NCBI GenBank assembly: GCA_965372055.1
Contig: CBDVAV010000001.1
Location: 1-32,550, forward strand
DNA length: 32,550 nucleotides
Source of the DNA: an uncultured bacterium
Lineage (GTDB): Bacteria > Bacteroidota > Bacteroidia > Cytophagales > Cyclobacteriaceae
Reading direction: 5' to 3'
The notes below the pieces were generated by a model. That model saw nothing but the letters and a program-made list of their open reading frames with translations, ran no database searches and was not told the DNA's origin. Positions 335 to 29,684 of this stretch are shown piece after piece. Every line of letters starts with the position of its first letter. The stretch's first letter is position 1. A program made the position numbers and the translations under genes.

Positions 335-434
335 CGTCATTCCTGCCTTCGCAGGAATGACGTTAAAGCAAAAGTGTTAAAACTATGCATACATATCTTC
401 AAAAAATAATCAGTAGTAAGCATAAATAAGCAAA

Positions 435-3037: not shown

Positions 3038-5431
3038 CTAGCGACTCAGCCACACTTTCATCTCCTCGCTGGCCTCCAATTTTTCTATCTCTGCCCGGGC
3101 CTTTTCTACTTGTTCCCGACCTTGCTGAATGATCTGTTGAAATCTGGGGTCATCCCACAGGCTTTCCAAAGGTGGATCATACAAGGCGAAATCGTGCAGC
3201 CCATCACCAAAGCCAAAATTTCCATAATGTTCCAGCCATTTCAAAGCCTCATCCTTGTCACCTAGTTGGGCATATACTTTGGCCAGTTCGTAGCCAATTC
3301 CTTTTGCCCACTGTCTTTTCCTGGCCACTACTTCCAGCAGGAAGTCCCTGATCTCGATCAAGTTTTGATGGGCCTCTTCCTCTTTTCCATTTTGTTTTAA
3401 TACATAACTGTACATGTGTTTATCGTTATACCCTTGAATTCTAATTACATCAGGTGAGCTGTCGTACAATTGTCTAAAATACTTTTCCGATTCATGGTAG
3501 TTGCCATTCATCATATTAATGATGGCCAGATGATACAGTACCTGGCCTTCAGGATTGATAGCTTTCAATTTTTCAGCAATGGGCAGGTTCTGTTTAAATT
3601 TTCCCTGGCAACGGTTAGTGTGAGCTAATCCTCCATAAGCTAGCACATGATCAGGTTGAATCTTTATCACTTCATTAAAATAATGCTCCGCTTTTTCGTA
3701 GTCTCCAACACTTAAGTAAAGCCGTGCGAATTGCATATAAAGTTCTGTTAACTCAGATCCTTTGATCAATGGCGAGGCTCTTACCAGCAATCTGAAGCGA
3801 ACTGAAAAATTATTTTCTAGGAAGTGAATATCGGCCAGTTGTAACATGGCCTCAGTATAGTTAGGGTTGATTTCCAGCGCCTGATCTAGGTCTTCCAGGG
3901 CTTGGGTTTTGGAGTTGGCAATCCAGTAGTAGTACTGACCTCGGAGGGTATAGGCCTCAGCAAGATTAGGATCTATTTCCAGTGCCCGGTTGCAAAGCAT
4001 CAACATGGAATCCAGTGGTTGCTCATCCAGGTATTCCCTAAAAAAATTTCTATCATAATAAACTTCGGCCAAACCGGCATAGGCCAGCGCAAAATTGGGA
4101 TCAGCTTCCAGGGCACGACGATACAGGCTTACTGCATTTTCGTAATCCTGGTTTTCGGTCTTGTTGTGGTATCGCTTGGCATATTGCTTTCCCCTTATAT
4201 AATATTCGTATGCTTCAGTGCTTTCCGTTGCCAAGGTTGTTAATCCTGATACTTCTTCTGGGGATATCTTTAATTTCAGTTGACTCACAATCTCTTCAGC
4301 TATCTTTCTTTGAATATCAAAAATACCCCGCGTGGTGTATTCTGAAGTGAAGTTATCTGCCCAAATATGCCTGTCATCATCTGTACTTATTAGCTGTGCG
4401 GTAATCATTATCTGGTCTTCTGATTTACGTACACTTCCTACTAATAAGTAACTTACTTTCAACTCTGTACCTATTTCATTAGCTGGTTTTTTCGTGTCCC
4501 GGTATTGTTCCACGGAGGTTCTTGAAATTACCCTTAGTTCTCCCATCTTCTGTAAGTTTGTAAGGATGTCTTCCATTACTCCATCAGCGAAATATTGTTG
4601 GTCTCCTTGCGGGCTCATGTCCGCAAAAGGAATTACTGCAATTGATTTATCAATTATCTTTACTGTTTCACTATCCTTTTGGTTATTATAAAAGAAATAA
4701 GCTAAAGCAAGGATTAGAATTACACCTATGGAAGCTAAAAGGATTTTGCTCTTGTTTTTTGGTTTTGATTCTATTGAAGGAGAAGCGATTGTAGATGTTG
4801 ATTGGACTCCTTCTTTTTCAATCTTGAAAGAATCTCCAATTTTCAGTCCTGATACTATCTCTTGTATAGCATTTGCTACTTTGTTGATTTGATTGCGATA
4901 ATTAGTCCTATTCAGATTATCTTCTTTGTTGTCCTCCGGTTTGAGTGGTCTGTTTACCCCTGGCTCTTGATATACAAAATCAATTGATCTTAAAAAGCCA
5001 ACCTCATCTTCTACTAACTGTCTATCTGCATCACTAATATCATGAATCCTTATAGGTAAAACCCTACTTGCAGTATTGCCATTTGGAAGTTCTACTTTCA
5101 AACCATGATCGTCAGCTTCCGCCATTTTATTGAATGCCAAAAATTCATTAGTCCAGGCGAAGCTATTGGGGTCACAGTAGGTTTTAGATATGATGGGGAT
5201 AAAGATTAAACACTTTAATTTCTTAGCTAAGGAATCATCTACATCATGAGTTTCCAGTAAACCATCGTATGGGTTTTCATCAAAATAGATGGAGATGTAT
5301 TCTTTGAAAGTAGCTTCAATCTCACTCTTTAATGTATTGATAAACTCTGTAACCCATCCATCCAGTTTGTTATCCTTCTGGCGATAACTGATGAAGATGT
5401 CATATTCGTAGCCTGGGATAATTGAAGGCAT
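3038..5431 (-). CDS. TIR domain - single TM - TolB-N-like module - TPR repeat protein (paralog 1)
   Basis: 797-aa ORF. The N-terminus YDIFISYRQKDN...LIFIPIISKTYCDPNSFAWTNEFLAF is TIR-like. One hydrophobic helix ILLASIGVILILALAYFFY spans aa 230-248 (nt 4688-4744). KSIAVIPFADMSPQGDQQYFADGVMEDILTNL follows, then ~400 aa of TPR-like repeats. Confidence 0.85.
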   Translation of the reverse strand: MPSIIPGYEYDIFISYRQKDNKLDGWVTEFINTLKSEIEATFKEYISIYFDENPYDGLLETHDVDDSLAKKLKCLIFIPIISKTYCDPNSFAWTNEFLAFNKMAEADDHGLKVELPNGNTASRVLPIRIHDISDADRQLVEDEVGFLRSIDFVYQEPGVNRPLKPEDNKEDNLNRTNYRNQINKVANAIQEIVSGLKIGDSFKIEKEGVQSTSTIASPSIESKPKNKSKILLASIGVILILALAYFFYNNQKDSETVKIIDKSIAVIPFADMSPQGDQQYFADGVMEDILTNLQKMGELRVISRTSVEQYRDTKKPANEIGTELKVSYLLVGSVRKSEDQIMITAQLISTDDDRHIWADNFTSEYTTRGIFDIQRKIAEEIVSQLKLKISPEEVSGLTTLATESTEAYEYYIRGKQYAKRYHNKTENQDYENAVSLYRRALEADPNFALAYAGLAEVYYDRNFFREYLDEQPLDSMLMLCNRALEIDPNLAEAYTLRGQYYYWIANSKTQALEDLDQALEINPNYTEAMLQLADIHFLENNFSVRFRLLVRASPLIKGSELTELYMQFARLYLSVGDYEKAEHYFNEVIKIQPDHVLAYGGLAHTNRCQGKFKQNLPIAEKLKAINPEGQVLYHLAIINMMNGNYHESEKYFRQLYDSSPDVIRIQGYNDKHMYSYVLKQNGKEEEAHQNLIEIRDFLLEVVARKRQWAKGIGYELAKVYAQLGDKDEALKWLEHYGNFGFGDGLHDFALYDPPLESLWDDPRFQQIIQQGREQVEKARAEIEKLEASEEMKVWLSR

Positions 5432-5566
5432 AGGGTTCTAATTGCTCTAATTAAGGAGTGAAATTACGATTTTTCTACTGATTTTTATAATCAATGATAT
5501 ATCAGGTATCAACATTTTCTTTACCTTGTCTATTGATTAACTTCATCTTGAATTAACACTCGCATC

Positions 5567-6889
5567 ATGGAGAATAAAACAAATAATATCACGTTGAATC
5601 AATTGCCAAATGGAAACAGGAGAGATTTTGTAAAAAAGAGTGGCCTGGCTGCTGCATCTTTAATTGTTGCCCCTTTTTTGACAAATGCTAAACAACAGCA
5701 CCCTGTACTATGGAAGCAGTTTCCCGAAATAAACGATGATGATTACCTGTGGAAATGGGTACAGAATTCATACACGGTTTCGTCAACGGTATCAAATTTT
5801 AACAATGGATCTGTGAGCCCACAGCCCAAAGTGGTACAGGAAGTGTTTGAATTTTATAACCGGTTGTTCAATGAAACACCCTCACGCTACATGTGGAGCA
5901 GCCAAGATAAGGTAGAGTCCGTGAGAGAGAAACTGGCGGAGATTGGCGGCTGCGAGGCAGACGAGTTGGCAATTAACAGAAACACAACAGAGGCCATCAA
6001 TACTATAATTTGGGGATTGAACCTGAACCAGGGAGATGAAGTTGTACTCTCGGAACAAGATTATTCCACGGTAATGAAAACCTGGGAGCAGTAGGAAAAA
6101 AGGCATGGCATTGTCTTAAAATATATCTCCTTTGACCTTCCGGTGGAAGATGAAACCCTGATTGTGAATACTTATGTCGCTGCAGTAACTTCAAAGACCA
6201 AGGTAGTGACCATCACCCATGTGAACAACCTCAACGGTAATGTTATGCCAGTGAAAGCCATCGCTGATGCGGTAAAAAAGAAAAACCCCAAAGTACAGGT
6301 GCTGGTGGATGGTGCCCATGCATTCGCCCACATCGATTTTAATATCTCCGACCTCAATTGCGAATTTTATGGGGCCAGTTTGCACAAATGGTTGTGTGCC
6401 CCATTCGGGACGGGATTATTATATATTAAGAGAAGTGTGATAAAAGATATCTGGCCTTTGTTTCCTTATATGGATCCCCAATCAGGCGATATCAGGAAGT
6501 TTGAAACTTTAGGCACACGCATGTTACCGGCAGAACTTTCCATTGCCAGGGCCTTAGATTTCCAGGAAACCATCCAGATAAAGCGCAAAGAGAAACGATT
6601 GCGCTACTTAAAAGATTATTGGATCCAAAGAGTGGCCGAGATACCCAATGTGGTAGTAAAAACTTCCATGAAACCGGAATTTTCCTGTGCTTTGGGATCT
6701 TTTTCCCTCAAAAATATGGATCATGGTGAATTAAGTATCCGACTTTTAAAAGAGTATCATATTCACACTACCTACAAAGCAGACAAGCACAAGAAGTTTG
6801 AAGGAATGAGGATCACCCCTCATGTTTATACCAGGATCTCTGAATTGGATAGATTGGTGAAGGGCATAAAGGAGTTGGCTAAAGTCTGA
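5567..6889 (+). pseudogene. Class-V (isopenicillin-N-epimerase / cysteine-desulfurase-like) PLP aminotransferase with a Tat signal, interrupted by one in-frame TAG at 6092-6094
   Basis: ORFs 5567..6094 and 6143..6889 are in the same frame. Read-through gives ..TWEQ*EKRHGIVLKYISFDLPVEDETL.. The N-terminus is NRRDFVKKSGLAAASLIVAPF, and an ASLHKW PLP-lysine context is present. Confidence 0.8.
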
Positions 6890-6904
6890 ATTTTTAAAGG
6901 ACTT

Positions 6905-6960
6905 CTGGTAATGTTGGTAAGGTCAAAACTTTGGGAACGCGTATGTTTCCGGAGGTACTG
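6905..6960 (+). pseudogene. Short diverged fragment homologous to an internal part of the aminotransferase
   Basis: Translates to SGNVGKVKTLGTRMFPEVL, against SGDIRKFETLGTRMLPAEL encoded at 6484-6540. Confidence 0.6.
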
Positions 6961-7316
6961 TGCATGTAAGGATGAACAAGCTGGAAGTTTTTGGAATAGT
7001 AAAAGGTACAACCCTGGACCTGGACCCCACGAACCCTGGCTATGATATCACTGCTTTTCTGGGAATCTACCTGAAGAAAAGCTCTTTGTATGACCCTGTA
7101 CTGGAACAGCTTGAAAAAATACCTGAAATCACTAACATCCATTATACTACAGGTAACTACAGTATGTTTGTCAAGCTTTATTGCAGGGATACCCAGCACC
7201 TGAAAGAAGTGCTGCATGAATAAGATTCAAAAAGTGAGGGAAATATCCAGGACTGAGATTATATATCGCTTGAAGAAAGCCTAAATAGGCATATTCATTT
7301 GACGATTGATGGTTGA
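6960..7316 (+). pseudogene. Lrp/AsnC-family regulator lacking the N-terminal HTH and carrying frameshifts near the 3' end
   Basis: The ligand-binding half is recognisable: GYDITAFLGIYLKK..IHYTTGNYSMFVKLYCRDTQHLKEVLHE. The tail NKIQKVREISRTE / ISLEESLNRHIHLTIDG* is only readable after frame changes. The intact tail copy at 13757-13866 serves as reference. Confidence 0.7.
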
Positions 7317-7317
7317 T

Positions 7318-7340
7318 AATTAGTAATTAGTAATTAGTAA
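7318..7340. repeat. Heptanucleotide microsatellite (aattagt) x3 plus a partial unit
   Basis: Direct reading gives aattagt aattagt aattagt aa. Confidence 0.9.
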
Positions 7341-7440
7341 TCACTAGTTAGTAGAATGTGATTTTGGAATTTTGTACATGCACTTTCTATGTGTATAGTT
7401 TTATAAACTAAGAACTGACAACGGACAACCGAGAACTGAA

Positions 7441-10026
7441 TTACAAATCCTCAGGCTCAGGAAAGTTATAGGTGGCAACCAGTGCCATAACTTCTGCTTT
7501 CTTTTTTTTCTGTTTGGTAACTAGTTCCTTGAAACGGGGGATTTCTCTAATATTATCGTAGAAGGATTCTGAAAAAGGATCTAAATATCCATTGTCTATT
7601 GCTTTTCCCATCCAGGATAATGCTTCTTCTTGTTGATCAAATAAAGCATAATATAAAGCCAACTGGGCCATTATGTTGTTATCTTCAATTAAAATTGGGT
7701 TATTGTCATATCTTTCAAAAAAATTGTCAATTCGATCCTCGCAAATTGTTTGAGATTCCTGTGTTTTCCCTGTTTTTAAATAACTGTCTGCTACAAAATT
7801 GTAGGTTCCGTGCCAATGATCGGGAGTGTCCATCAAATATCTTATTGAATCTTTATTCAATTCTTCGTAATAGTCCGTAACATCCTGATATCTCCCCATC
7901 ATCCATAGACTAGTTATTTTTCTTAGATGCAATGAGGAACTATCCCTATTTAATTCAAATAGGTTTTCAGATATTTCAAGATATTTCTCAATATTCATCA
8001 ACTTCCGATATACCCTATTAATGGTGCTTAGATTCCCAGACGTTTTACCGAATTCAAGATCTTTTTCTAGATAGATCTGCGCAGTTTCATAATTACCTAA
8101 ATCCACATGCATCTGCCCAATAATATGAATTGCATGGACTCTGTGTAACGAAAGCTGTTTTTTTATTGCTTCCATGCTGCCTTTAAAATCTCCAACTGTT
8201 AAAGACCAGCTTTGTAAGTTGTGCAGAGCAGCCAGATAGTTGGGATTTATTGATAAGGTTTTTTCATAATACTTTAAAGCCTCCTTAATTCTTCCTTCAA
8301 TTTGACTAGTAACCGCTAGAGCTTTATAGCACTCTGCACACTGATTATCTAGTTCTAATCCCAAATTAGCATATGCTTTTGCTGAGTCGATCCAGTTATG
8401 AGGATAATTATATTGAAACCATCTTTGCATGAAAGCGTTTGCCAGCCCACCATAAGCAGCTGCATATTTTGGATCTTTTTGTACGGCAAGATTTAACTGT
8501 TCGATGCCAAGTTCATTAGACGTCAGGTTATATTGTCGATATAGCTGTCTGCCTCTTTGAAAATGCTCATAGGCTTCTATGTTTTCTGTTTGAGCCTTAG
8601 TGATGAGGGCCACCTGCTGTGGTACTATCTTCAACTTCAATTCTCCTACAATATTTTCAGCAATTTTTCTTTGGATTTCAAATAGACTTTTTGCCGCATA
8701 ATCAGAAGTAAAATTATCTGCCCAAATGTGGCTGTCATCTCTGGTATTAATCAACTGGGCTGTAATCATAATTTGATTGGCAGCTTTTCGTACACTTCCT
8801 TCCAACAAGTAACTGACATTTAGTTCATCACCAATTACAGGGGCAGATTTGTCGGTATTTCTATATTGTTCGACCGACGTTCTGGAAATTACTCTCAATT
8901 CGCCCATTCTTTGCAACTGTGTAAGTATATCCTCCATTACCCCATCAGCAAAGTATTGCTGGTCTTTGTCATCGCTCAAATTGGTAAATGGAATGACAGC
9001 TATTGATTTGTCAATTTCTTCAGATACTACTTGTTCAGTACTGCTTTGAGGATAGATCATGAACAAAGCCACTACTGTAACTACAAGGAGTAAAATAAAG
9101 GTATTACTGGTTAGTGGTTTTTTTTGGGCATCAGTAAAGGGATTATCCCTTGATGCTGCTGAACCTGTTTTAATAAACCCCTGTGGACTTCTCTCAAACA
9201 ACCATGCCATGAGGATTGAAATGGGAAAAAGGATTATCAAAATAAATGGAACTATCTGCAACATGTTTTGGGGCAAGCCAATCACCCCGGCACCTTTCCA
9301 AATAGCTATTGAAATCAATAGATAAACTAAACTAACCCTTAATACATTCCTGCGCTTCAATTCTGAAGTTACTTGTGTTTTCTTTGGTGTTGGTGTTTCT
9401 TTTTCTCCAGGATCAGATTCTTCCCATGACTCTGCTGTTTTAATCCCTGATATTATCTCCTGTATGGCATTGGCAACTTTGTTAATTTGGTTACGATAAT
9501 TAGTCTTATTTAGATTATCCTCTTTGCTGTCCTCTGGTTTTAAAGGCCTGTTTACTCCTGCCTCTTGGTACACAAAATCAATTGATCTCAAAAACCCTAT
9601 TTCATCCTCAACTAGTTTTTTATCTGCATCATCTATATCATGTATCCTGATTGGTAGTACCCTGTTTGCAGTATTGCCATTGGGTAGGTTTACTTTTAAG
9701 CCATGTTCATCATTAGCTGCCAATTTATTGAACGCCAGAAACTCATTGGTCCAGGCGAAACTGTTTGGATCGCAATAGGTTTTGGAAATGATGGGAATGA
9801 AGATCAAGCACTTTAGTTTTTTGGCCAAAGAATCATCAACATCATGGGTTTCTCCTAATCCATCAAAAGGGTTTTCATCGAAGTAAATTGAGATGTCTTC
9901 TTTGAAGGTAGCTTTAATCTCCCGGTTCAGGCTTTCCACAAACTCAGTTACCCAGCCATCTTGGTTATCATTCTGTCGATAACTGATGAAAATATCATAT
10001 TCGTAGCTTGGGATGATTGAGGGCAT
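7441..10026 (-). CDS. TIR domain - 3 TM - TolB-N-like module - TPR repeat protein (paralog 2)
   Basis: 861-aa ORF. The first ~200 aa are nearly identical to paralog 1. Three hydrophobic segments lie at about aa 228-249, 257-277 and 309-326. KSIAVIPFTNLSDDKDQQYFADGVMEDILTQL follows, then a divergent TPR-like C-terminus. Confidence 0.85.
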   Translation of the reverse strand: MPSIIPSYEYDIFISYRQNDNQDGWVTEFVESLNREIKATFKEDISIYFDENPFDGLGETHDVDDSLAKKLKCLIFIPIISKTYCDPNSFAWTNEFLAFNKLAANDEHGLKVNLPNGNTANRVLPIRIHDIDDADKKLVEDEIGFLRSIDFVYQEAGVNRPLKPEDSKEDNLNKTNYRNQINKVANAIQEIISGIKTAESWEESDPGEKETPTPKKTQVTSELKRRNVLRVSLVYLLISIAIWKGAGVIGLPQNMLQIVPFILIILFPISILMAWLFERSPQGFIKTGSAASRDNPFTDAQKKPLTSNTFILLLVVTVVALFMIYPQSSTEQVVSEEIDKSIAVIPFTNLSDDKDQQYFADGVMEDILTQLQRMGELRVISRTSVEQYRNTDKSAPVIGDELNVSYLLEGSVRKAANQIMITAQLINTRDDSHIWADNFTSDYAAKSLFEIQRKIAENIVGELKLKIVPQQVALITKAQTENIEAYEHFQRGRQLYRQYNLTSNELGIEQLNLAVQKDPKYAAAYGGLANAFMQRWFQYNYPHNWIDSAKAYANLGLELDNQCAECYKALAVTSQIEGRIKEALKYYEKTLSINPNYLAALHNLQSWSLTVGDFKGSMEAIKKQLSLHRVHAIHIIGQMHVDLGNYETAQIYLEKDLEFGKTSGNLSTINRVYRKLMNIEKYLEISENLFELNRDSSSLHLRKITSLWMMGRYQDVTDYYEELNKDSIRYLMDTPDHWHGTYNFVADSYLKTGKTQESQTICEDRIDNFFERYDNNPILIEDNNIMAQLALYYALFDQQEEALSWMGKAIDNGYLDPFSESFYDNIREIPRFKELVTKQKKKKAEVMALVATYNFPEPEDL

Positions 10027-10123
10027 TATGGATTTGGTTTAAGCCTTGAATTTAGTGATTTCTAAGCAATGATGCACTAATAGTGAAATGTGCCTTGAAA
10101 GTTAATAGAGGTCTATTTCAAAA

Positions 10124-10212
10124 TTACATTACAATACAGAAAGTGAATTACAATTCCATTGGGCACCTAATCGTGGGTAATTTCTCTAGTGTTTTAGCCT
10201 CTTTGGTGATGG
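10124..10212 (+). repeat. Intergenic element R, copy 1
   Basis: ttacattacaatacagaaagtgaattaca..gcacctaatcgtgggtaatttctctagtgttttagcc. The conserved blocks are shared with R2-R4. Confidence 0.85.
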
Positions 10213-10288
10213 TTACCCCATTGCATATGGTTTTAATACGTTGTAATTTTCCACACATACTTGGACTGAATTCCTACATTTTGTTGAA

Positions 10289-10858
10289 ATGAGCCATTTC
10301 GAATTTGTATCCGTTGCACTATCTATAGTCATAGGCCTGGCCTTAGCACTCTTGCTCACATCTAGCCTGGCCCTTTTCAAAGCTAGGAGAAGTGTTCGAC
10401 TCCATTGGATACCCTTTCTTTGGGCTTCTTATATCTTTGTTTCTCAAATCCAAATTTGGTGGGCAATATATGGGCTAAGCATACTTGACACCATATCTGG
10501 TTACACCTTTATGCTATTATTACTAATGGCCATCTTGCTCTTCATAGCTGGAGGGCTAGTTCTGCCGAACAATTCACAAATGACAGTCAGTTTACTTGAA
10601 TACTTTCAAAATGACGGGCGATATGGCGTACTTGCATATGCTACTTTCTGGCTAATTGCTTTCATTGGAAATCTCAGTGTTTTCAGTTTGCCTTTTTGGG
10701 ATCCTGCTAACATAACCTTATTTATTTTGATGACACTTGCGCTATGGGCCTTTCGAACGCACCGTATGCTCGCGATAGCCACAATTCTTTATGGTATAAC
10801 CCTAATTATCAACACCTTGATTGCTCAAGTAGCCCTGGAAAATATTTTGGGATGGTAG
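10289..10858 (+). CDS. Hypothetical polytopic membrane protein
   Basis: 189-aa ORF with about six hydrophobic segments and no recognisable motif. It is the only plus-strand gene in the island. Confidence 0.55.
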   Translation: MSHFEFVSVALSIVIGLALALLLTSSLALFKARRSVRLHWIPFLWASYIFVSQIQIWWAIYGLSILDTISGYTFMLLLLMAILLFIAGGLVLPNNSQMTVSLLEYFQNDGRYGVLAYATFWLIAFIGNLSVFSLPFWDPANITLFILMTLALWAFRTHRMLAIATILYGITLIINTLIAQVALENILGW

Positions 10859-10922
10859 CAGTAGAAAGGCATTTAGGGGTTCAAACCGGTCAACCCTGAT
10901 TCAAGGATCATTTATTAACAAA

Positions 10923-11008
10923 ATACATTCCAATACAGAAAGTGAATTACACTTATGGTCTGCACCTAATCGGTGGTAATTTCTCCAGTGTTTTCGCCCA
11001 TGTGATTG
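10923..11008 (+). repeat. Intergenic element R, copy 2
   Basis: atacattccaatacagaaagtgaattacac..gcacctaatcggtggtaatttctccagtgttttcgcc. Confidence 0.85.
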
Positions 11009-11051
11009 TTATGTGGATTGATGCTTGGATTGAATATGTTTAGAACCAATC

Positions 11052-12845
11052 CTATTGTTTTAGAGAAAACCTAGGCATGGACTTTAATTTATTAGGATCA
11101 ATTCCTGCTTCAATTAATCGTGCTTTAAAATTTGGGGCTGCATCAATATCAAATGGGATATAGTACGAAAACCGAAATCCCATTTTTTCAAAAAAACGTT
11201 TATAGTAATTTTTTTCTGATAACTGATTATCAAATTTAGATATAAGGTTGTTGGCAGTTTCTACTTCCCCTAATTCCCAATATATCCAAACCACTCGAAG
11301 AAATTGCCAACTTTCATAATCAAGATTATCCAGGTCAATTTGTGGATCAAAAACCTGACCTAACAAAGCTTTGCCAAAATTGATTGCTATCACATCACTT
11401 GAGTTTTTAAGGCTATCTGCAATTAACTTACTCTCACCCATCATTAACCTTAACAGGAGCCTAGATGATCGGGCATAATCGTTATTGCTGGTAATGCCAA
11501 GATTTTCTGCTTTATCTAAAACATTCTTGGCCTCTGATAAATTACCTGAATGAATGTAGATATTTGCAAAGTAAAGATGTATAAATGGGTTATACGGATC
11601 ATTAGTAATTTCTTTATTTAAGATACTAAATACTCCCTCTTGACCAATTTTTAAATATATGAAATCATTTACAAATTGAGAGGTTATTAAATAAGATGGC
11701 TTATAGTTAGAAATAAAATCAGACGCTATCTGTGGTATATCAGACCAATCATTCAGATGGATATGTAGAGTAATATTTAAAATTAATTGAATTGCTTCAT
11801 CACGAATGAAACTGATAGCATATCTATAGTTACTTATTTGTAACTCTATTGCATTCTTAATTGAAAGATCTACATCCTCAGGCCCTGGCATGGTATAATA
11901 AACATAATGATTATAAGCATCAGCCTTTAAATAGTATGCAATACCTATTGTTGAATCCAATGCTAATGCCTTATCCAGAAACTCGTTTGCCTTCCATAGG
12001 GTAAATGTTCTTGGATAAATATTATGAAAATCGTTAAACAATTTTTTTCCTCTTAGAAGGTATTGATAAGCTTCAATATTCTTTGTGCCCGCTACAGCAA
12101 GATTTTCTCTTGCACTATCATCTAAAATGATATTTAAGGCTCGAGCAATTTTATTGGCTATTTCTGTCTGGACTTCAAATAATTCATCATACTTACGATT
12201 AAAGGTTTCAGACCAAATGTGTACATCATCATTTGCCCTTATTAATTGTGTTGTTATTCTCAAATTGTCATCAATTTTTCTTACCGATCCTTCAAGAACG
12301 TAATTTACATTTAAAGTATCGGCCAGTTTTTTAATTGTCAGCCCTTTACCTTTAAATGCAAATGATGAGCTCTTCCCTCTTAACTCTAGTTCTTCAACCT
12401 GGAATAAACTGTTAAGGATCTCCTCGCTCAAGCCATCCGAAAACCATTCCTGATCCTTATCTGGAGACATATCATCAAAAGGCATAACAGCAATAGATTT
12501 TTCCGATGCAATAACATTTTGATTAGCAATTTCAACCTCAACATCTTCAGATTGAATTAGGACATTAACAACAAAGACAGAAGCTAACAAAAGAATAATG
12601 GCATGCAATAAAAGCTCTCGTTGCTGTATGTTCCGTGATTCTGATTTTCCATGAAACCATGCATAAATCAATACAGCAGGCAAGCCGAAAATGGCAATTA
12701 TTATAAATATGTCAAAAATCTTAGCATTCCAGCCATATTTTTCAACAAAAAAATTGAGGGCCTCAATTAATACCCAACCACCACCCAAGTAGATAACCAG
12801 TGTTTGTTGTATTTTACGTTCTTTTAATTGATGAACAAAGGGCAT
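11052..12845 (-). CDS. 3 TM - TolB-N-like module - TPR-like repeat protein without a TIR domain (paralog 3)
   Basis: 597-aa ORF. The N-terminal 3-TM module ends in YAWFHGKSE (paralog 2 has MAWLFERSP). KSIAVMPFDDMSPDKDQEWFSDGLSEEILNSL follows, then a helical-repeat C-terminus. Confidence 0.8.
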   Translation of the reverse strand: MPFVHQLKERKIQQTLVIYLGGGWVLIEALNFFVEKYGWNAKIFDIFIIIAIFGLPAVLIYAWFHGKSESRNIQQRELLLHAIILLLASVFVVNVLIQSEDVEVEIANQNVIASEKSIAVMPFDDMSPDKDQEWFSDGLSEEILNSLFQVEELELRGKSSSFAFKGKGLTIKKLADTLNVNYVLEGSVRKIDDNLRITTQLIRANDDVHIWSETFNRKYDELFEVQTEIANKIARALNIILDDSARENLAVAGTKNIEAYQYLLRGKKLFNDFHNIYPRTFTLWKANEFLDKALALDSTIGIAYYLKADAYNHYVYYTMPGPEDVDLSIKNAIELQISNYRYAISFIRDEAIQLILNITLHIHLNDWSDIPQIASDFISNYKPSYLITSQFVNDFIYLKIGQEGVFSILNKEITNDPYNPFIHLYFANIYIHSGNLSEAKNVLDKAENLGITSNNDYARSSRLLLRLMMGESKLIADSLKNSSDVIAINFGKALLGQVFDPQIDLDNLDYESWQFLRVVWIYWELGEVETANNLISKFDNQLSEKNYYKRFFEKMGFRFSYYIPFDIDAAPNFKARLIEAGIDPNKLKSMPRFSLKQ

Positions 12846-12879
12846 TAGTGGATTTAGTTTACCAACATTAAAAATAGTA
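12846..12879 (-). promoter_or_regulatory. Shared 34-nt leader box (P-box) abutting the start codon of 11052..12845
   Basis: tagtggatttagtttaccaacattaaaaatagta matches 15130-15163 with 2 mismatches. Confidence 0.6.
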
Positions 12880-12926
12880 TAAATCCCTCAAAATTCTTAA
12901 TCCTTATAAATCAGCTCCTTAAATGG

Positions 12927-13010
12927 TTACATTACAATACAGAAAGTGAATTACACGTACGGATGCACCTAATCGAAAGTGATTTCTCCAGTGTATTCGC
13001 CTTTGAGGGT
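12927..13010 (+). repeat. Intergenic element R, copy 3
   Basis: ttacattacaatacagaaagtgaattacacgtacggatgcacctaatcgaaagtgatttctccagtgtattcgcc. Confidence 0.85.
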
Positions 13011-13014
13011 AAGC

Positions 13015-13581
13015 TTACTTTTTTGATTCTAATTCAGATATCCAATTATTTAGTTTGTTAATTTTTATCTGAAGATCCCCCTTGCCCTGGACATGGTGTC
13101 TGGTTAACCAAAAGACCACACCCCCTATACTCAGTACCATGGATGATCCAAAAATTATTAATATTGTCAGCGTTATTTCAGGCATAATAAATTGCATCAT
13201 TCCAATTATAAATACAATGAGTCCTGGTATAAGTGGGAGAAGAGTCCACCAAAAAACACTTCTTTGCAGTTTGTATGTGTTTTGATACCAACCAATCCAG
13301 TACTTAAAATAGTCTAATGTTTCTTCCCTAGATGGCGGTTCATCCTTTCTCATCCTATTTCTAATAATGTATAGAATAATATACAGGGTTCCTGTTGCAA
13401 TAAGTATAGAACCGATTGGTAATAAAATCGGTGCATCCTTGAATAAGTATGCATAAAAGAGGAAAAAAATTATCAAGAATATTCCTGCTGATATTTCACG
13501 AGTGTTACTCTTTGATAAAGACTTTTTGAACTCGTCAGTTTCCTGAAACATCGCTGCTTCATCATTAATTAATCCATCCAT
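13015..13581 (-). CDS. Hypothetical membrane protein (about 4 TM)
   Basis: 188-aa ORF with hydrophobic segments such as GIFLIIFFLFYAYLF and LLPLIPGLIVFIIGMMQFI. No recognisable family. Confidence 0.55.
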   Translation of the reverse strand: MDGLINDEAAMFQETDEFKKSLSKSNTREISAGIFLIIFFLFYAYLFKDAPILLPIGSILIATGTLYIILYIIRNRMRKDEPPSREETLDYFKYWIGWYQNTYKLQRSVFWWTLLPLIPGLIVFIIGMMQFIMPEITLTILIIFGSSMVLSIGGVVFWLTRHHVQGKGDLQIKINKLNNWISELESKK

Positions 13582-13756
13582 ATGGCGAATAATTTGATTC
13601 CAAGTATCTAAAATCTAAATCTTTATTGCTATGACATTTACATAGTTGCTGTTCAATAACTAATAACTTTAAATTTAATAAGTTATGTTGATTTGTAAGG
13701 GTGTTTTGTACAGTATTGTGTGTGTAATAGTTTAATTGACATTAAAAATATGAGGT

Positions 13757-13866
13757 AAGTGCTGCATGAAAAGATCCAAAAAGTGAGTGGGATATCCAGG
13801 ACTGAGACTATTATATCGTTGGAAGAAAGCCTTAATAAGCATATTCATTTGACGATTGATGATTAG
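13757..13866 (+). pseudogene. Isolated 3' fragment of an Lrp/AsnC-family gene (last ~36 codons, frame intact)
   Basis: Encodes VLHEKIQKVSGISRTETIISLEESLNKHIHLTIDD*. It aligns at the nucleotide level with 7207-7316. Confidence 0.75.
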
Positions 13867-13882
13867 TAAGTTCGAAGGTATG

Positions 13883-13996
13883 TTACATTACAATACCCTC
13901 CTTCACTTCGTTTCGGTAGGCAAGCAGAAAGTGATTTACACGTACAGTGTACACCTAACTTGGGGTAATTTCTCCGGAGTTTTCCCTTTGGTGGTA
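13883..13996 (+). repeat. Intergenic element R, copy 4 (carries a 28-nt insertion at 13897-13924)
   Basis: ttacattacaatac[28 nt]cagaaagtgatttacacgtacagtgtacacctaacttggggtaatttctccggagttttccc. Confidence 0.8.
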
Positions 13997-14073
13997 TCAG
14001 GTACACACCCAATTTTCAAGCTATAGATAAGGCCCCAAATTTGTTTTATATTTGTGTTGGTGGTAGTATATAG

Positions 14074-15123
14074 TTATTTCCTTTCACCAAAAAAGTCCAT
14101 TACTTCAAGTGTCGAATGAGCTTCTCCTTTTATTTCTTTTCCATTTATTTTTAAATCCAAAACGGTTTTAGAAACAAATCTGGCATACCATGTTCTCCAT
14201 TCGCTGTTCTCTCCAAAAGGAAATGATGCTACAAGCTGTTGGCCCTGAAATCGAATGTAATTATATCCTTTAGCTCCATTGACAATATACATACAATCAC
14301 TACTTATTTTTTTGCCAGTATTCGGATGTGGAACTTTTTCACCCTCTAAACAAACAACTTCATCATTAATAGCATCAATCAGAACTTCATGTCCTTTTGC
14401 CAGATAAACAAATTTAGTTTCTTCTCCACCATTCGCAGGATTAAATCTAACCGATGAAGTAACCGTAGTAATTCCATCTACTTCCGCTGGACTCCATAAC
14501 CAATCACCCAAAATTTCATTCATCGGACAGTTTCCCCAGTTATGATCGTGATATCCACTTCCTGTAATCTCATGAATTTCACCGTTAATAGTTATGGTTC
14601 CTTTTATATTTGCACTTGGAACTGCACATAGCCATGCAAAATACTTTCCATCTGCATCCCAATAACCTGTGCCTGGTTTATAAGTAGGAACCGTTTTATC
14701 AATAATGATATGTAGGCCACAGTTTCCTTCAATCTCATCAGGATCTAAATAGATTTCATATTTGTCCAATCCGTCTAATGATTTGATGAAATGCTTATTA
14801 AATTGGGTATTACAAAAATCTTTTTGGATGAATACCTTTTCATAGTCGATGTCTATTCTCTTTTCAATGATAGAACCTTTTTCATTGGCCATATTAATAT
14901 TAATAAACGAAAACGGATTTCCCTTTTTATCAACTTCATAATAATAATTTACAACAAAAAACAAACCATTGGATAAATGTCCATCGGTATACCACCATTC
15001 AAATTCTCCAGAATTTAAATTAGATGGATCTAAACGTTGGCCATCTTCCCATGGTTCCGATTGATTTTTTGTGAGACCATATGCCTTGTAGTCCGCATCT
15101 GATGTTTTTAATAAACCTTTCAT
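14074..15123 (-). CDS. Hypothetical protein, tentatively of the CrtC/AttH-like (hydroxyneurosporene-synthase superfamily) fold
   Basis: 349-aa ORF. The EWWYTDGHL and GSGYHDHNWG motifs resemble that superfamily from memory only; this is not verified. Confidence 0.45.
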   Translation of the reverse strand: MKGLLKTSDADYKAYGLTKNQSEPWEDGQRLDPSNLNSGEFEWWYTDGHLSNGLFFVVNYYYEVDKKGNPFSFININMANEKGSIIEKRIDIDYEKVFIQKDFCNTQFNKHFIKSLDGLDKYEIYLDPDEIEGNCGLHIIIDKTVPTYKPGTGYWDADGKYFAWLCAVPSANIKGTITINGEIHEITGSGYHDHNWGNCPMNEILGDWLWSPAEVDGITTVTSSVRFNPANGGEETKFVYLAKGHEVLIDAINDEVVCLEGEKVPHPNTGKKISSDCMYIVNGAKGYNYIRFQGQQLVASFPFGENSEWRTWYARFVSKTVLDLKINGKEIKGEAHSTLEVMDFFGERK

Positions 15124-15129
15124 GCCTTT

Positions 15130-15163
15130 TAGTGGGTTTAATTTACCAACATTAAAAATAGTA
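15130..15163 (-). promoter_or_regulatory. P-box copy 2, 6 nt upstream of the start codon of 14074..15123
   Basis: tagtgggtttaatttaccaacattaaaaatagta. Confidence 0.6.
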
Positions 15164-15386
15164 ATGTTTAGGGATTTAGGCTAATCGTTGTGGGCTGAGT
15201 GATCTTCGTGTATAGGAGGTTCAGGTATTTTCAGACTCAATGAGTTAACATGAAGGAAAAAATCTCTAAAAATCGGAATAGAGGACGTCTTTTCTAGTAC
15301 GATTATATTGGAATTAATGATGGAATATGATCATGAGGAAGATAATTACTTGAAACTCATTAAAACCACCTTAAATGAAAAATAAT

Positions 15387-15824
15387 TTAAGGAATTGATA
15401 TCATGTCATTTTCTGTAAATACTTTTGTTTTAATAAGTAAACCACTCCGATATTTTATTTTCATTCTTTTAGGAACATTAATCATGGGATCATCTATCTC
15501 TAGCGTTCTATGGGAAGCAAGCATTTTAAGTTTATTGTTTTGTACTTTTTTTCTGACCGAATCTGTTACGTTTAAATCATTTTCATCATTATCAATTCCA
15601 TAATAAGCTTCAATGATCTCAAATTTATTCCCCCATAACTTAATAATTATTAATAAAGAAATAATCACAATTCCTATTAACCATAAAATTGAGATTTTTA
15701 CATCGATGATTTTTAACGCCTTAATCCATGGAACACCTTCTATCCGTCCTATTATAATTAGAAAGGTGTAACCACCTAATGTTCCTAAAAATCCTTTCAA
15801 AATATGACCTCCCCACTTTTTCAT
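15387..15824 (-). CDS. Hypothetical membrane-anchored small protein
   Basis: 145-aa ORF with two N-terminal hydrophobic segments and a soluble C-terminal ~75 aa (AYYGIDNDENDLNVTDSVRKKV..IDDPMINVPKRMKIKY). Confidence 0.5.
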   Translation of the reverse strand: MKKWGGHILKGFLGTLGGYTFLIIIGRIEGVPWIKALKIIDVKISILWLIGIVIISLLIIIKLWGNKFEIIEAYYGIDNDENDLNVTDSVRKKVQNNKLKMLASHRTLEIDDPMINVPKRMKIKYRSGLLIKTKVFTENDMISIP

Positions 15825-16204
15825 ATATTATTCCGATCTAGTAAAATTTTTTAACGAATTTTGGAAGAATGATCAATCATTAAAAAGATCATTTACTTCA
15901 ATCCTTTATATTAAGAATTATATACACTTTTTGATATACTTGTCTCCATTCAATTTGAATTATTTTTACTCTAAGATTAGTTCCTGTTTCTGGTAGTCTA
16001 TTGAAATTTACCAAATCGTTCCAATGCGGATTGACCTATAATAATGGTAGATTTTGATTATGATGTCGTCACTTTGGTATAATGAACTTGATAATCCTCA
16101 CTGAACTATGTATACTCACTCTAACTAGTTAATAATCAATCTATAATAAAACAGCTATAATTATAGGTTGCACATTAGGTGAGAGAATCCATAAAAACTA
16201 CAGC

Positions 16205-16270
16205 ATTCCCGAGTTGGACAGGCTGGTGAAGGGCATAAAGGAGTTGGCCAAAGTCGGAATTTGTAAATAG
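16205..16270 (+). pseudogene. Displaced, diverged copy of the 3' end of the aminotransferase gene
   Basis: Encodes IPELDRLVKGIKELAKVGICK*, against ISELDRLVKGIKELAKV* at 6836-6889. There are 9 mismatches in 58 nt, mostly at third codon positions. Confidence 0.8.
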
Positions 16271-16415: not shown

Positions 16416-16490
16416 ATGAAAAATAAATTACATTTCTTCTTTTGTTGTTGCTGTTGTAAAATCTATAGCGAGAGGGGAGAGGATATGTAA
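16416..16490 (+). CDS. Poly-Cys leader peptide 1 (24 aa): MKNKLHFFFCCCCCKIYSERGEDM
   Basis: ATG at 16416 and TAA at 16488. Five consecutive Cys codons occupy 16443-16457. The 3' end overlaps a candidate antiterminator strand, and terminator 1 follows. Confidence 0.6.
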   Translation: MKNKLHFFFCCCCCKIYSERGEDM

Positions 16491-16516
16491 TTAGTTACTA
16501 TATGTAAGAATTTACA

Positions 16517-16546
16517 GGCCTTTCCCCAACAGGAAAGGCTTTTTTT
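16517..16546 (+). terminator. Intrinsic terminator 1
   Basis: Stem gcctttcc (16518-16525) / ggaaaggc (16532-16539), 6-nt loop, then a 7-T run at 16540-16546. Confidence 0.8.
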
Positions 16547-16634
16547 ATGATTTTTAATTAAAGCAACAAAGCCAAAGAAATGGCTTCATCAATAATTATG
16601 AAATATAAATTTTACCGAAGTGAAAAATAAAATT

Positions 16635-16694
16635 ATGAAAAACCCGGCAATCGATTGCTGTTGTTGTAAGGCCTGTTCGAAACCTCCGGGATAG
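16635..16694 (+). CDS. Poly-Cys leader peptide 2 (19 aa): MKNPAIDCCCCKACSKPPG
   Basis: ATG at 16635 and TAG at 16692. Four consecutive Cys codons occupy 16656-16667, with a fifth at 16674. Terminator 2 follows. Confidence 0.55.
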   Translation: MKNPAIDCCCCKACSKPPG

Positions 16695-16731
16695 TCCATA
16701 TTGTCTAGCTAGTGAAAAGCTAAATGACCAT

Positions 16732-16759
16732 GGCCTTTCCCAACAGGAAAGGCTTTTTT
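16732..16759 (+). terminator. Intrinsic terminator 2 (near-identical to terminator 1)
   Basis: Stem gcctttcc (16733-16740) / ggaaaggc (16746-16753), 5-nt loop, then a 6-T run at 16754-16759. Confidence 0.8.
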
Positions 16760-16766
16760 GTTATTA

Positions 16767-16837
16767 GACAGCGTGGCCGAGTGGTTAGGTGGAGGTCCGC
16801 AAAACCTTAAACGGCGGTTCGATTCCGCCCGCTGTCT
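16767..16837 (+). tRNA. tRNA-Cys (anticodon GCA at 16799-16801), no encoded CCA, C instead of U at position 33
   Basis: Hand-folded cloverleaf. Acceptor GACAGCG/CGCTGTC with discriminator T. D arm GCC-GAGTGGTTA-GGT. Anticodon stem GAGGT/ACCTT with loop CCGCAAA. Variable loop AAAC. T arm GGCGG-TTCGATT-CCGCC. Confidence 0.8.
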
Positions 16838-16865
16838 CTTTTAAGTGATTTAACCGAGTATAAAT

Positions 16866-21006: not shown

Positions 21007-21194
21007 GTGAAAATCAATAGTTTTATTATTTAGGTGTCAACTTTTAGAGGCATCGGATAATGCTATATATTAACTAAAAATCATATACTTTTGATTGTTA
21101 TTGTGTCAGGTATCACACCCTGTCATACACCAAAATAGTAGTAATCTGATTGCTGGACAGAAATCATGTTTTGATGATATTGCAAAGTGCAACA

Positions 21195-21487
21195 AAGTCA
21201 TTCCTGCGAAGGCAGGAATCCAGAATATGAACCTAATGTTGGGGTTTTAAGGAGTGTACAGCAAAATATGGTGTAAAAAGCCTTGTTTGTTATGAGACAT
21301 TTGATGATCCAATGTCAGCAATTATTCGGGAATAAAGAATGCAGAAATGGTAAAGAGTACGGTAGATCAAGCTTATTGAAAAGTGAATATGAGTTGGGAA
21401 GACTTGTCAAAGCAGTGCTATCACTCAAGCAATTTTCTTCCACTCACCAAATGGTTAACTGGATTCCTGCCTTCGCAGGAATGACTT
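21195..21487 (+). mobile_element. 293-bp MITE-like unit: perfect 27-bp terminal inverted repeats enclosing a decayed GIY-YIG nuclease 3' half
   Basis: 21195-21221 (aagtcattcctgcgaaggcaggaatcc) is the exact reverse complement of 21461-21487. The interior reads GFKECTAKYGVKSLVCYETFDDPMSAIIRE*RMQKW*RVR*IKLIEK.., then NMSWEDL after a frameshift. Confidence 0.75.
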
Positions 21488-21532
21488 AATCGCCAAACTT
21501 CCAATATTTAAGATTGAAATTGATAATAGCCA

Positions 21533-29682: not shown

Positions 29683-29684
29683 TA

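What the first reader, a model, noticed from the sequence alone, without database searches (positions are those of the whole stretch)
6836..16262. ~9.3-kb variable island bracketed by diverged direct copies of the aminotransferase 3' end
The 58 nt at 6836-6893 and at 16205-16262 are direct repeats with 9 mismatches. Six mismatches are synonymous third-position changes (atc/att, gaa/gag, gat/gac, aga/agg, ttg/ctg, gct/gcc), and the distal copy has lost its stop (tga to gga). Everything between the repeats is accessory or decayed. It holds an aminotransferase internal fragment, two Lrp fragments, TIR paralog 2, the TIR-less paralog, three orphan membrane proteins, a CrtC/AttH-like ORF and the R repeats. 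The distal copy looks like the original or foreign gene end displaced by the insertion. No integrase, transposase or tRNA attachment site lies inside.
Basis: partly seen in the sequence, partly recalled or inferred. Interest (0 to 1): 0.65.

Follow-up and report, generated by a model that had tools for sequence, protein, structure and literature searches.

The report
Stranded aminotransferase gene-end beside patchwork accessory DNA
A 58-base leftover of an aminotransferase gene's end really does sit 9.3 kb downstream of the gene, but it is an old scar at the edge of a repeat-filled region rebuilt piece by piece, not the border of a discrete mobile island, which makes it ordinary genome wear.

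Summary
Bases 6836-6893 and 16205-16262 are direct repeats with 9 mismatches, scoring 72.5 bits against at most 37 in shuffles. Seven differences are synonymous, one is Ser/Pro and one removes the stop (P = 8e-4 for that many synonymous changes by chance). The distal copy is therefore a relic of a once-functional aminotransferase 3' end.

The "inserted variable island" reading is only partly supported.
- The window is a whole metagenomic contig from a Bacteroidota lineage whose nearest database relatives share 60-70% amino-acid identity. No long empty-site contig exists.
- Short contigs from marine-sediment runs show that relatives about 10-15% diverged already carry the distal relic with its left neighbour. 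One relative also carries the window-type debris after the aminotransferase stop. The arrangement is old.
- Variation is piecemeal. At least four different continuations follow the stop. The TIR-less paralog and the CrtC-like gene have the lowest GC3 and are almost absent from six of eight runs, while TIR2 and two membrane ORFs occur in relatives.
- There is no integrase, transposase, terminal inverted repeat or tRNA duplicate. At least five families of short repeats punctuate the interval, four of them multi-copy in the runs.

Best reading: a gene-end relic from segmental duplication or one-sided (illegitimate) recombination, inside a plasticity zone. Low interest.

The parts
5567..6889 (+). 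Class-V aminotransferase / PvdN-like periplasmic PLP enzyme (AT) with a twin-arginine signal. It is inactivated in this contig by an in-frame TAG at 6092-6094.
   Evidence: Pfam Aminotran_5 on both halves. NCBIfam SufS/PvdN-like. Read-through translation. Relatives read AAG/AGG at the TAG.
6836..6893 (+). Proximal copy of the 58-nt repeat: the last 17 codons, the stop and 4 nt.
6922..6966 (+). Relic of an internal piece of an AT gene (residues ~312-326, TLGTRM motif), 33 nt after the AT stop.
   Evidence: tblastn E 0.03. 29/40 nt identical, with synonymous-type changes. Second-best extra hit of an AT-family HMM over all six-frame pieces. Spanned by a 90%-identical contig in run X6.
6960..7305 (+). 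5'-truncated Lrp/AsnC pseudogene. It covers AsnC residues ~40-124, then continues with in-frame stops and two frameshifts.
   Evidence: Pfam AsnC_trans_reg. NCBIfam AsnC 40-124/153. Frames. Indels at 7219/7220 and 7261 relative to relatives.
7220..7311 (+). Copy A of the 'T' repeat (Lrp tail plus downstream DNA). It is multi-copy in metagenomes.
   Evidence: 89% identical to 13757-13864. Depth is 3-10x that of its neighbours.
7441..10026 (-). TIR-like / transmembrane / TPR paralog 2 (861 aa).
   Evidence: 68% aa identity to the N-terminus of the 3038-5431 paralog. TPR hits. Only weak TIR support: flax L6 TIR E 0.01. Found at 94-99% in runs X1-X8.
10121..10199 (+). R repeat copy 1, lying 95 nt upstream of the paralog-2 start when read on the minus strand.
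   Evidence: Depth is 100-590 against about 2-10 for unique DNA.
10289..10858 (+). 189-aa membrane ORF with no family match.
   Evidence: Present at 97% in run X3.
10920..10998 (+). R repeat copy 2.
11052..12845 (-). TIR-less TPR paralog (597 aa), GC3 0.26. Essentially seen only in the window-like strain.
   Evidence: Depth about 0 in X3-X8; 100%-identical piece in X1.
12845..12879 (-). Shared 5' leader ('U'), 94% identical to 15129-15163, immediately upstream of the TIR-less start.
12927..13002 (+). R repeat copy 3, lying 82 nt upstream of the TIR-less start when read on the minus strand.
13015..13581 (-). 188-aa membrane ORF.
   Evidence: Present at 92.5% in X3.
13757..13864 (+). Copy B of the 'T' repeat: the last ~37 codons of an Lrp gene plus its tail.
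13925..13993 (+). R repeat copy 4, truncated at its 5' end.
14074..15123 (-). 349-aa ORF with a weak CrtC/AttH-like lipocalin match, GC3 0.24. It carries the same 5' leader as the TIR-less paralog.
   Evidence: Depth 0 in seven of eight runs.
15142..15298 (.). 'V' repeat, very high copy in metagenomes.
   Evidence: Depth up to 560 (X3) and 3057 (X8) at 15187.
15387..15824 (-). 145-aa membrane ORF, GC3 0.23.
16101..16188 (.). 'E' element, the left neighbour of the distal relic. It is conserved in relatives and also occurs in at least one other context.
   Evidence: Contigs ending at 16188 with another continuation in X1, X2 and X8. Depth 23-37 against 5.
16205..16262 (+). Distal copy of the 58-nt repeat: a stranded aminotransferase 3' end with the stop lost (TGA>GGA). 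It may extend back to about 16178-16189 in decayed form.
   Evidence: Present with E at 85-89% in X1 and X8 and partly in X3.

Best explanation
The distal 58 nt is the stranded 3' end of a former full-length aminotransferase (AT) gene, either a second copy or a displaced allele.

Shown: it diverged from the resident gene while both were still coding. It was then cut off from the rest of its gene, before the window's lineage split from relatives that are now about 10-15% diverged in DNA.

Shown: the 9.3 kb between the copies is not one inserted mobile island. It is an old, repeat-punctuated plasticity zone between the aminotransferase and the Cys-leader / tRNA-Cys / sulfite-reductase unit, and it has been remodelled piece by piece. 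It holds pseudogene debris next to the aminotransferase stop, family paralogs (TIR-like/TPR) shared with relatives, and low-GC3 strain-specific genes (the TIR-less paralog and the CrtC-like ORF).

Inferred: the relic arose by recombination that was not site-specific. I cannot separate two routes.
(a) Tandem duplication of a [TIR-TPR(-) | aminotransferase(+)] block, followed by replacement of most of the second aminotransferase.
(b) One-sided homologous (homology-facilitated illegitimate) recombination, in which incoming DNA anchored in the aminotransferase pushed the old gene end downstream.

Inferred: the two copies are too diverged (84%, 25-nt identical core) to be an efficient excision substrate today.
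For: - The repeat is real and far above chance.
- Coding-type divergence: 7 synonymous, 1 nonsynonymous and 1 stop loss. pS is 0.62 and pN 0.025. P(>=7 synonymous of 9 random changes) = 8e-4.
- An AT-family HMM over all six-frame pieces finds only two extra hits. They are the distal relic and the internal fragment, both on the + strand and in gene order.
- The relic plus its left neighbour occurs at 85-89% in X1 (1136-nt contig) and X8 (361-nt contig), and partly in X3.
- The window-type junction from the AT end through the internal fragment to the Lrp fragment is spanned at 90% by a contig in X6.
- At least four different continuations begin 18-26 nt after the AT stop in relatives.
- Composition is heterogeneous. 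TIR2 and the 189-aa ORF look like the flanks. The TIR-less paralog, the CrtC-like ORF and the 145-aa ORF have GC3 of 0.23-0.26.
- The TIR-less and CrtC-like bins have about 0 depth in X3-X8, while AT and TIR2 are covered.
- No integrase, transposase, terminal inverted repeats or tRNA duplicate.
- For route (a): TIR1/TIR2 are paralogs placed in the same orientation relative to AT and the AT relic, with pS 0.70 against 0.62.
- For route (b): AT alleles of relatives share distal-copy states, 6 of 9 sites in X4 and 2 of 9 in X3. That puts the relic within the allelic diversity of the population. The displacement model with orphaned 3' ends is described for T6SS and Rhs loci (PMC5361080).
Against: - No long contig of a close relative exists, so neither an empty site nor a full-length second aminotransferase has been seen.
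- All comparative evidence comes from short Logan contigs of mixed populations, and links through multi-copy repeats are ambiguous.
- For route (a): no other aminotransferase remains lie upstream of TIR2, where the second copy should start, and pS is near saturation.
- For route (b): no donor is identified and no junction microhomology can be shown.
- The right flank of the relic differs, or is too diverged to align, in X1 and X8. This is also what a mobile unit ending at 16262 would give.
- The relic is better conserved between the window and the X1 relative (2 listed differences in 58 nt) than the 103 nt to its left (about 15 differences). That could mean constraint or gene conversion rather than a dead scar.
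Confidence: 0.6

Rival explanations
1. Decayed site-specific integrative element, like a CIME (cis-mobilizable element). An element carrying its own copy of the aminotransferase 3' end integrated into that gene end, leaving attL (6836-6893) and attR (16205-16262). It later lost its integrase and transfer genes and could still be moved in cis by a related element.
For: - Direct repeats made of a gene's 3' end bracket accessory DNA, with a 25-nt identical core.
- The continuation changes exactly at about 6907-6915 and at 16261-16262 in relatives.
- The element next to the distal copy (16101-16188) recurs in another context, as the end of an element family could.
- CIMEs, which keep attL and attR but have no integrase, are described (PMC5704250).
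Against: - No integrase or remnant was found.
- The homology extends on both sides of the identical core, with coding-type divergence. That fits a truncated gene better than an att site.
- The content is compositionally and phylogenetically heterogeneous.
- The arrangement is shared by relatives 10-15% diverged.
- No empty-site or excision joint appears among the displayed joints.
Confidence: 0.12
2. The distal fragment is kept because it now does something, for example as part of the promoter or regulatory region upstream of the Cys-leader / tRNA-Cys / sulfite-reductase unit. Alternatively, it is kept similar to the gene end by gene conversion.
For: - Between the window and the X1 relative the fragment shows 2 listed differences in 58 nt, against about 15 in the 103 nt to its left.
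- The 25-nt core is identical between the two window copies, although aminotransferase alleles of relatives vary at 6856, 6862 and 6865.
- The fragment lies about 150 nt upstream of the first Cys-leader ORF.
Against: - Its right flank differs in X1 and X8, so the link to the leader is not conserved.
- It has no ORF with a start codon.
- No Rfam match and no structure signal.
- The numbers are very small.
Confidence: 0.06
3. Assembly artefact. The contig is a chimera of related strains, and the second copy comes from another strain's aminotransferase locus.
For: - The window is an entire metagenomic contig.
- Several 85-100% related populations co-occur in the same kind of samples.
Against: - A 25-nt identical core is too short to mis-join contigs at usual k-mer sizes, and a mis-join would yield one copy, not two.
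- The relic with the same left neighbour is found independently in three studies.
- Pieces 100% identical to the window, from both flanks and the interior, occur at similar depth in run X1.
Confidence: 0.03

Closest known systems
Orphaned gene 3' ends left by displacement at Rhs / T6SS effector-immunity loci (model of homology-facilitated illegitimate recombination; PMC5361080)
   Same: There is a conserved upstream anchor gene. A stranded, diverged copy of the gene's 3' end lies downstream, with accessory genes in between. No integrase is present. Divergence between the resident end and the orphan end matches that between alleles in the population.
   Different: Here the gene is a periplasmic class-V aminotransferase, not a polymorphic toxin. 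There is only one orphan end plus one internal scrap. No effector-immunity logic applies, no donor or intermediate forms were seen, and the relic is old and shared by diverged relatives.
Genomic islands, ICEs and IMEs integrated in the 3' end of a gene, and their decayed CIME derivatives (PMC5704250)
   Same: Direct repeats containing the end of a target gene flank accessory DNA, and no integration genes remain, as in a CIME.
   Different: The repeats are only 84% identical, with homology on both sides of the identical core. The content is not a coherent unit in composition or distribution. No relative with an empty site was seen, no integrase family is linked, and there is no tRNA involvement.
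Tandem segmental duplication followed by pseudogenisation (gene relics)
   Same: Paralogous TIR-like/TPR genes stand in the same orientation next to the aminotransferase and next to its relic. Their synonymous divergence is comparable (pS 0.70 and 0.62).
   Different: About 6 kb of unrelated genes and repeats lie where the body of the second aminotransferase should be, and no further remains of it are detectable.
Flexible genomic islands / plasticity zones between conserved genes in marine bacteria (own knowledge)
   Same: The region is strain-variable, lower in GC, rich in repeats and contains gene-family paralogs and orphans, between housekeeping genes.
   Different: It is documented here only from one 32.5-kb contig and short metagenomic pieces. 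The flanking 'core' aminotransferase is itself a pseudogene in this contig.

Membership tests
Site-specific integrative island / CIME at a gene 3' end | Direct repeats (attL/attR) at both ends that include the 3' end of the target gene | tested here: met
   58-nt direct repeat, 49/58 identical, with a 25-nt identical core.
Site-specific integrative island / CIME at a gene 3' end | Integrase or recombinase gene next to an att site (island), or recognisable remnants of one (decayed island) | tested here: not met
   No Pfam, NCBIfam or PADLOC hit to a recombinase in any ORF. The gaps are full of stops. A CIME needs none, so this does not exclude that sub-type.
Site-specific integrative island / CIME at a gene 3' end | Presence/absence of the block as one unit among close relatives (empty site) | tested here: inconclusive
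   No long contig of a close relative was found in the genome, metagenome or protein collections. Short contigs show no displayed joint from the AT end to 16263 onward, but some joints were not displayed. Relatives carry the relic and parts of the block.
Site-specific integrative island / CIME at a gene 3' end | Coherent foreign composition across the block | tested here: not met
   GC3 is 0.34-0.41 for TIR2 and the 189-aa ORF (flank-like), against 0.23-0.26 for the TIR-less paralog, the CrtC-like ORF and the 145-aa ORF. The tetranucleotide deviation is confined to about 13.5-16.5 kb.
Site-specific integrative island / CIME at a gene 3' end | Excision products (circular junction, restored site) | not testable with these tools
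   The runs are available only as Logan contigs at depth 2-10. No raw reads of the source sample are on hand.
Displacement by homology-facilitated illegitimate recombination (orphaned 3' end) | Resident gene intact up to its end, with a diverged orphan 3' end downstream in the same orientation | tested here: met
Displacement by homology-facilitated illegitimate recombination (orphaned 3' end) | The orphan end corresponds to another allele of the same gene in the population | tested here: inconclusive
   The X4 allele shares 6 of the 9 distal states and the X3 allele shares 2 of 9. The numbers are too small to exclude an older paralog (2 against 6 changes, one-sided P about 0.15, my own binomial estimate).
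Displacement by homology-facilitated illegitimate recombination (orphaned 3' end) | Illegitimate junction with microhomology at the orphan's 5' edge; an identifiable donor | not testable with these tools
   The junction region 16178-16204 is decayed and abuts the repeat element 16101-16188. No donor sequence is available.
Tandem segmental duplication relic | Neighbouring genes duplicated in the same order and orientation, with similar divergence | tested here: met
   TIR1(-)|AT(+) and TIR2(-)|...AT relic(+). pS is 0.70 against 0.62, both near saturation.
Tandem segmental duplication relic | Further remains of the duplicated gene at the expected position | tested here: not met
   tblastn and the AT-family HMM find nothing between 7000 and 16135. 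The only other scrap, 6922-6966, lies left of TIR2.

The most novel reading that the evidence does not exclude
The short repeats that punctuate the interval (R x4, T x2, U x2, V, E), most of them multi-copy in the metagenomic runs, together with stranded gene ends, might mark an integrase-independent, repeat-mediated system. In an uncultured marine-sediment Bacteroidota lineage, such a system would shuffle single genes, especially members of the large TIR-like/TPR family, in and out of fixed chromosomal zones. The aminotransferase-end copies would then be one of its recombination scars.
Probability: 0.06. Interest if true: 0.6.

Novelty: new member of a known kind. Interest (0 to 1): 0.2.

Why it matters
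As it stands, it matters little. It is one more example of a gene-end relic at the edge of a strain-variable, repeat-rich zone. It mainly serves as a caution that diverged direct repeats made of a gene's 3' end are not by themselves att sites of an island.

It does give a dated marker for the history of this locus in an unsampled Bacteroidota lineage, because the relic is shared by relatives 10-15% diverged. The more unusual things in the neighbourhood lie outside the finding: the tandem Cys-leader attenuators with an embedded tRNA-Cys in front of the sulfite-reductase operon, and the very abundant R and V repeats.

Tried and rejected
- Empty-site search in genomes. The search for related loci with the aminotransferase found nothing in genome contigs or metagenome contigs. 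With sulfite reductase it found 27 loci, the best at 61% aa and none with the aminotransferase nearby.
- Contexts of the closest aminotransferase homologues (about 70% aa over the 248-residue query, 64-68% over the whole protein) share no synteny with the window.
- Exact-protein look-ups of window proteins returned nothing. The window's own contig is the only close entry.
- tRNA-targeted island: rejected. The single tRNA-Cys lies outside, its 3' end faces away from the block, and it has no duplicate.
- Transposon-like ends: no terminal inverted repeats at the borders.
- Defence-island reading: PADLOC gives only two marginal hits.
- Known RNA families in the interval: none apart from the tRNA. 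The R repeats show no supported consensus fold.
- 'Deletion' joints 10028>15137 and 5431>12853 seen in several runs were considered as empty-site variants. I rejected them because they land in the multi-copy U and V elements shared by upstream regions of the gene family.
- A GC-rich contig matching only 16218-16252 (X1, X2) was set aside as an unrelated organism.
- TIR identity of the paralogs' N-termini could not be confirmed by Pfam. There is only a weak match to plant TIR structures.

Full report
**1. The observation**

The stretches 6836-6893 and 16205-16262 align without gaps at 49 of 58 positions. The window's self-comparison reports the pair at E 2.9e-13 and 72.5 bits. In 40 dinucleotide-preserving shuffles the best off-diagonal direct repeat reached only 37.4 bits, so the repeat is not chance.

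Read in the aminotransferase (AT) frame, the nine differences are seven synonymous changes, one Ser>Pro change and the loss of the stop (TGA>GGA). If nine random substitutions are placed in the proximal copy, seven or more are synonymous in 0.08% of trials. pS is 0.62 and pN 0.025. The distal copy therefore spent most of its divergence as part of a working aminotransferase gene, and it was truncated afterwards.

A profile built from 56 family members and run against every stop-to-stop piece of the window in six frames finds only two hits beyond the gene itself. They are the distal piece (E 0.046) and a scrap at 6898-6966 (E 0.18), both on the + strand.

- The aminotransferase itself carries an in-frame TAG at 6092-6094, where related sequences read AAG or AGG.
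- A tRNA-Cys lies 505 nt to the right of the distal copy.

**2. Where the sequence comes from, and what can be compared**

The window is a complete 32,550-nt contig. Its sulfite reductase has no relative above 61% aa identity, either among 5.8 billion proteins or among GTDB species genomes. Its aminotransferase has none above about 70%. Loci of those distant relatives share no gene order with the window around either gene.

What does exist are short Logan contigs from marine-sediment and seawater metagenomes that match parts of the window at 85-100%. I laid eight of these runs (X1-X8) on the region.

**3. What the relatives show**

(a) The distal relic is old. A 1136-nt contig in X1 and a 361-nt contig in X8, from different studies, carry 16099/16102-16262 at 85-89% identity. 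That stretch is the relic together with the roughly 100 nt to its left. X3 carries a partial, more diverged version. To the right of 16261/16262 both contigs run into sequence that does not align to the window.

(b) The debris directly after the aminotransferase stop is also shared. A 121-nt contig in X6 spans 6859-6978 at 90%. It runs from the gene end through the internal aminotransferase scrap into the Lrp fragment.

(c) The DNA after the aminotransferase stop is nevertheless variable. In other relatives the sequence departs from the window 18-26 nt after the stop, in three further ways:
- tandem GGAAGGCTACA units followed by the Lrp-tail repeat (X1);
- an R-repeat-like sequence (X3);
- a palindromic GGTGTTAACACC sequence (X5).

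(d) Gene by gene, the interval does not behave as a unit. The TIR-like/TPR paralog 7441-10026 occurs at 94-99% in several runs. The 189-aa and 188-aa membrane ORFs occur at 97% and 92.5% in X3. The bins covering the TIR-less paralog (11010-12077) and the CrtC-like ORF (14214-14747) have almost no depth in X3-X8. They are matched by 100%-identical pieces only in X1, which evidently contains the window's own strain at low depth; X2, from the same study, has low depth over the TIR-less paralog only.

(e) Aminotransferase alleles of relatives share states with the distal copy. The X4 allele shares 6 of the 9 differing sites, the X3 alleles 2 and the X2 allele 3. The relic thus falls within the range of alleles present in these populations. 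With so few sites, an older paralog cannot be excluded.

**4. Anatomy of the interval**

Composition is mixed.
- TIR2 (GC3 0.34) and the 189-aa ORF (0.41) resemble the flanking genes (mostly 0.34-0.48).
- The TIR-less paralog (0.26), the CrtC-like ORF (0.24) and the 145-aa ORF (0.23) are lower.
- Intergenic GC is the same inside and outside the interval.
- The tetranucleotide deviation peaks only at 13.5-16.5 kb.

The spaces between genes are filled with short repeats:
- four R copies;
- two copies of an Lrp-tail repeat;
- a 35-nt leader shared by the TIR-less and CrtC-like genes;
- a 'V' element at 15142-15298;
- an 'E' element at 16101-16188.

The R, Lrp-tail, V and E repeats have metagenomic depths 4 to more than 100 times those of neighbouring unique DNA, so they are multi-copy. 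E also occurs followed by a different sequence (TGTTTAAAATCGAG...) in X1, X2 and X8.

Several apparent 'deletion' joints (10028>15137, 5431>12853) land in these shared elements and are not empty sites.

There is no recombinase, no transposase, no terminal inverted repeat and no partial tRNA copy.

**5. Explanation**

Shown:
- The distal copy is a relic of a coding aminotransferase end.
- Relatives carrying it are 11-15% diverged from the window over the relic-bearing stretch and about 10-14% in the aminotransferase.
- The block between the copies is heterogeneous in composition and distribution.
- Mobility genes are absent.

Inferred: the relic was produced by recombination that was not site-specific, and later gains and losses happened piecemeal, probably helped by the dispersed repeats. 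I cannot separate two routes.

Route (a) is tandem duplication of a [TIR-TPR(-) | aminotransferase(+)] block.
- For it: the paralogy and matching orientation of the 3038-5431 and 7441-10026 genes, and similar synonymous divergence (pS 0.70 against 0.62).
- Against it: the body of the second aminotransferase has left no trace where it should lie.

Route (b) is displacement of the old gene end by incoming DNA anchored in the aminotransferase. This is homology-facilitated illegitimate recombination, as proposed for orphaned 3' ends at T6SS and Rhs loci (PMC5361080).
- For it: the relic resembles alleles of other lineages, and a second aminotransferase scrap lies right after the stop.
- Against it: no donor or junction evidence.

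I put 0.6 on the general statement: an old gene-end relic at the edge of a piecemeal plasticity zone, not the att site of a discrete island. Within that, I split roughly evenly between routes (a) and (b).

**6. Rivals**

- A decayed integrative element that has kept its att sites but lost its integrase (a CIME, PMC5704250) remains possible at about 0.12. The breakpoints in relatives coincide with the ends of the two copies, and the E element next to the distal copy recurs elsewhere. Against it: the homology on both sides of the identical core, the heterogeneous content and the age of the arrangement.
- A functional or gene-conversion reading of the relic rests on very small numbers (2 against about 15 differences). 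I give it about 0.06.
- An assembly chimera is unlikely, at about 0.03. The relic with the same neighbour appears in independent studies, and window-identical pieces from the flanks and the interior co-occur in X1.

**7. Novelty and verdict**

Gene-end relics beside accessory DNA are a known kind of feature. This is a new instance in an unsampled lineage, of low interest (0.2). Long reads or isolate genomes of the clade would settle it, as set out in the next steps.

Noticed in passing
window 16416-16866: There are two tandem Cys-rich leader ORFs (MKNKLHFFFCCCCCK..., MKNPAIDCCCCKAC...). Each is followed by a near-identical hairpin plus T-run (16517-16545, 16732-16759). Then comes tRNA-Cys(GCA) at 16767-16838, only 28 nt before the sulfite-reductase start. 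None of 23 related sulfite-reductase loci has a tRNA within 10 kb, and 3 of 23 have a Cys-run leader ORF. This looks like cysteine-sensing attenuation with an embedded tRNA-Cys.
   Followed up: partly
window 6092-6094: The aminotransferase has an in-frame TAG. Relatives in X1, X2 and X3 read AAG or AGG at this codon, so the window has either a nonsense mutation or an assembly error.
   Followed up: yes
window 10121-10199, 10920-10998, 12927-13002, 13925-13993: The R repeats (~80 nt, all on the + strand) reach depths of 100-590 in metagenomes where unique DNA is at 2-10. Read on the minus strand, R1 and R3 lie 95 and 82 nt upstream of the starts of the two TPR paralogs. R may therefore be a family-specific upstream element rather than a mobile repeat. 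There is no Rfam match and no supported fold.
   Followed up: partly
window 15142-15298: The 'V' element upstream of the CrtC-like ORF has extreme depth in metagenomes: up to 3057 at 15187 in X8 and 560 in X3. Its nature is unknown.
   Followed up: no
window 12845-12879 and 15129-15163: The TIR-less paralog and the unrelated CrtC-like ORF share a 94%-identical 35-nt leader directly upstream of their start codons. This suggests that the CrtC-like gene took over the upstream region of a lost family member.
   Followed up: partly
window 5136-5669 and 9408-10475: The N-terminal (TIR-like) domain region of the TPR paralogs has depths of 24-305 in runs where the rest of the genes is at 2-10. This points to a very large gene family in these communities. 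Pfam does not recognise the domain as TIR, and there is only a weak match to plant TIR structures.
   Followed up: partly
window 29404-29984: A HigB-like toxin and an HTH antitoxin form a pair.
   Followed up: no
window 3-346, 21194-21231, 21459-21489: A tandem ~170-nt repeat sits at the left contig end (3-180 / 170-346, 90%). Its ~30-nt end motif recurs, in both orientations, on either side of 21283-21489, between cysH and the GNAT gene.
   Followed up: no
window 24075-24249 and 24790-24969: A 180-nt direct repeat (87%) lies in the spacer between the NAD(P)HX-repair (YjeF-N / carbohydrate-kinase) gene at 22623-24125 and the NUDIX gene at 24861-25763, and overlaps the first ~50 and ~110 nt of the two genes.
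   Followed up: no
whole window: The contig comes from a Bacteroidota lineage with no relative closer than about 60-70% aa identity in GTDB species genomes or the 5.8-billion-protein collection. Near-identical and 85-90% related DNA is nonetheless scattered through marine-sediment metagenomes of several studies.
   Followed up: partly
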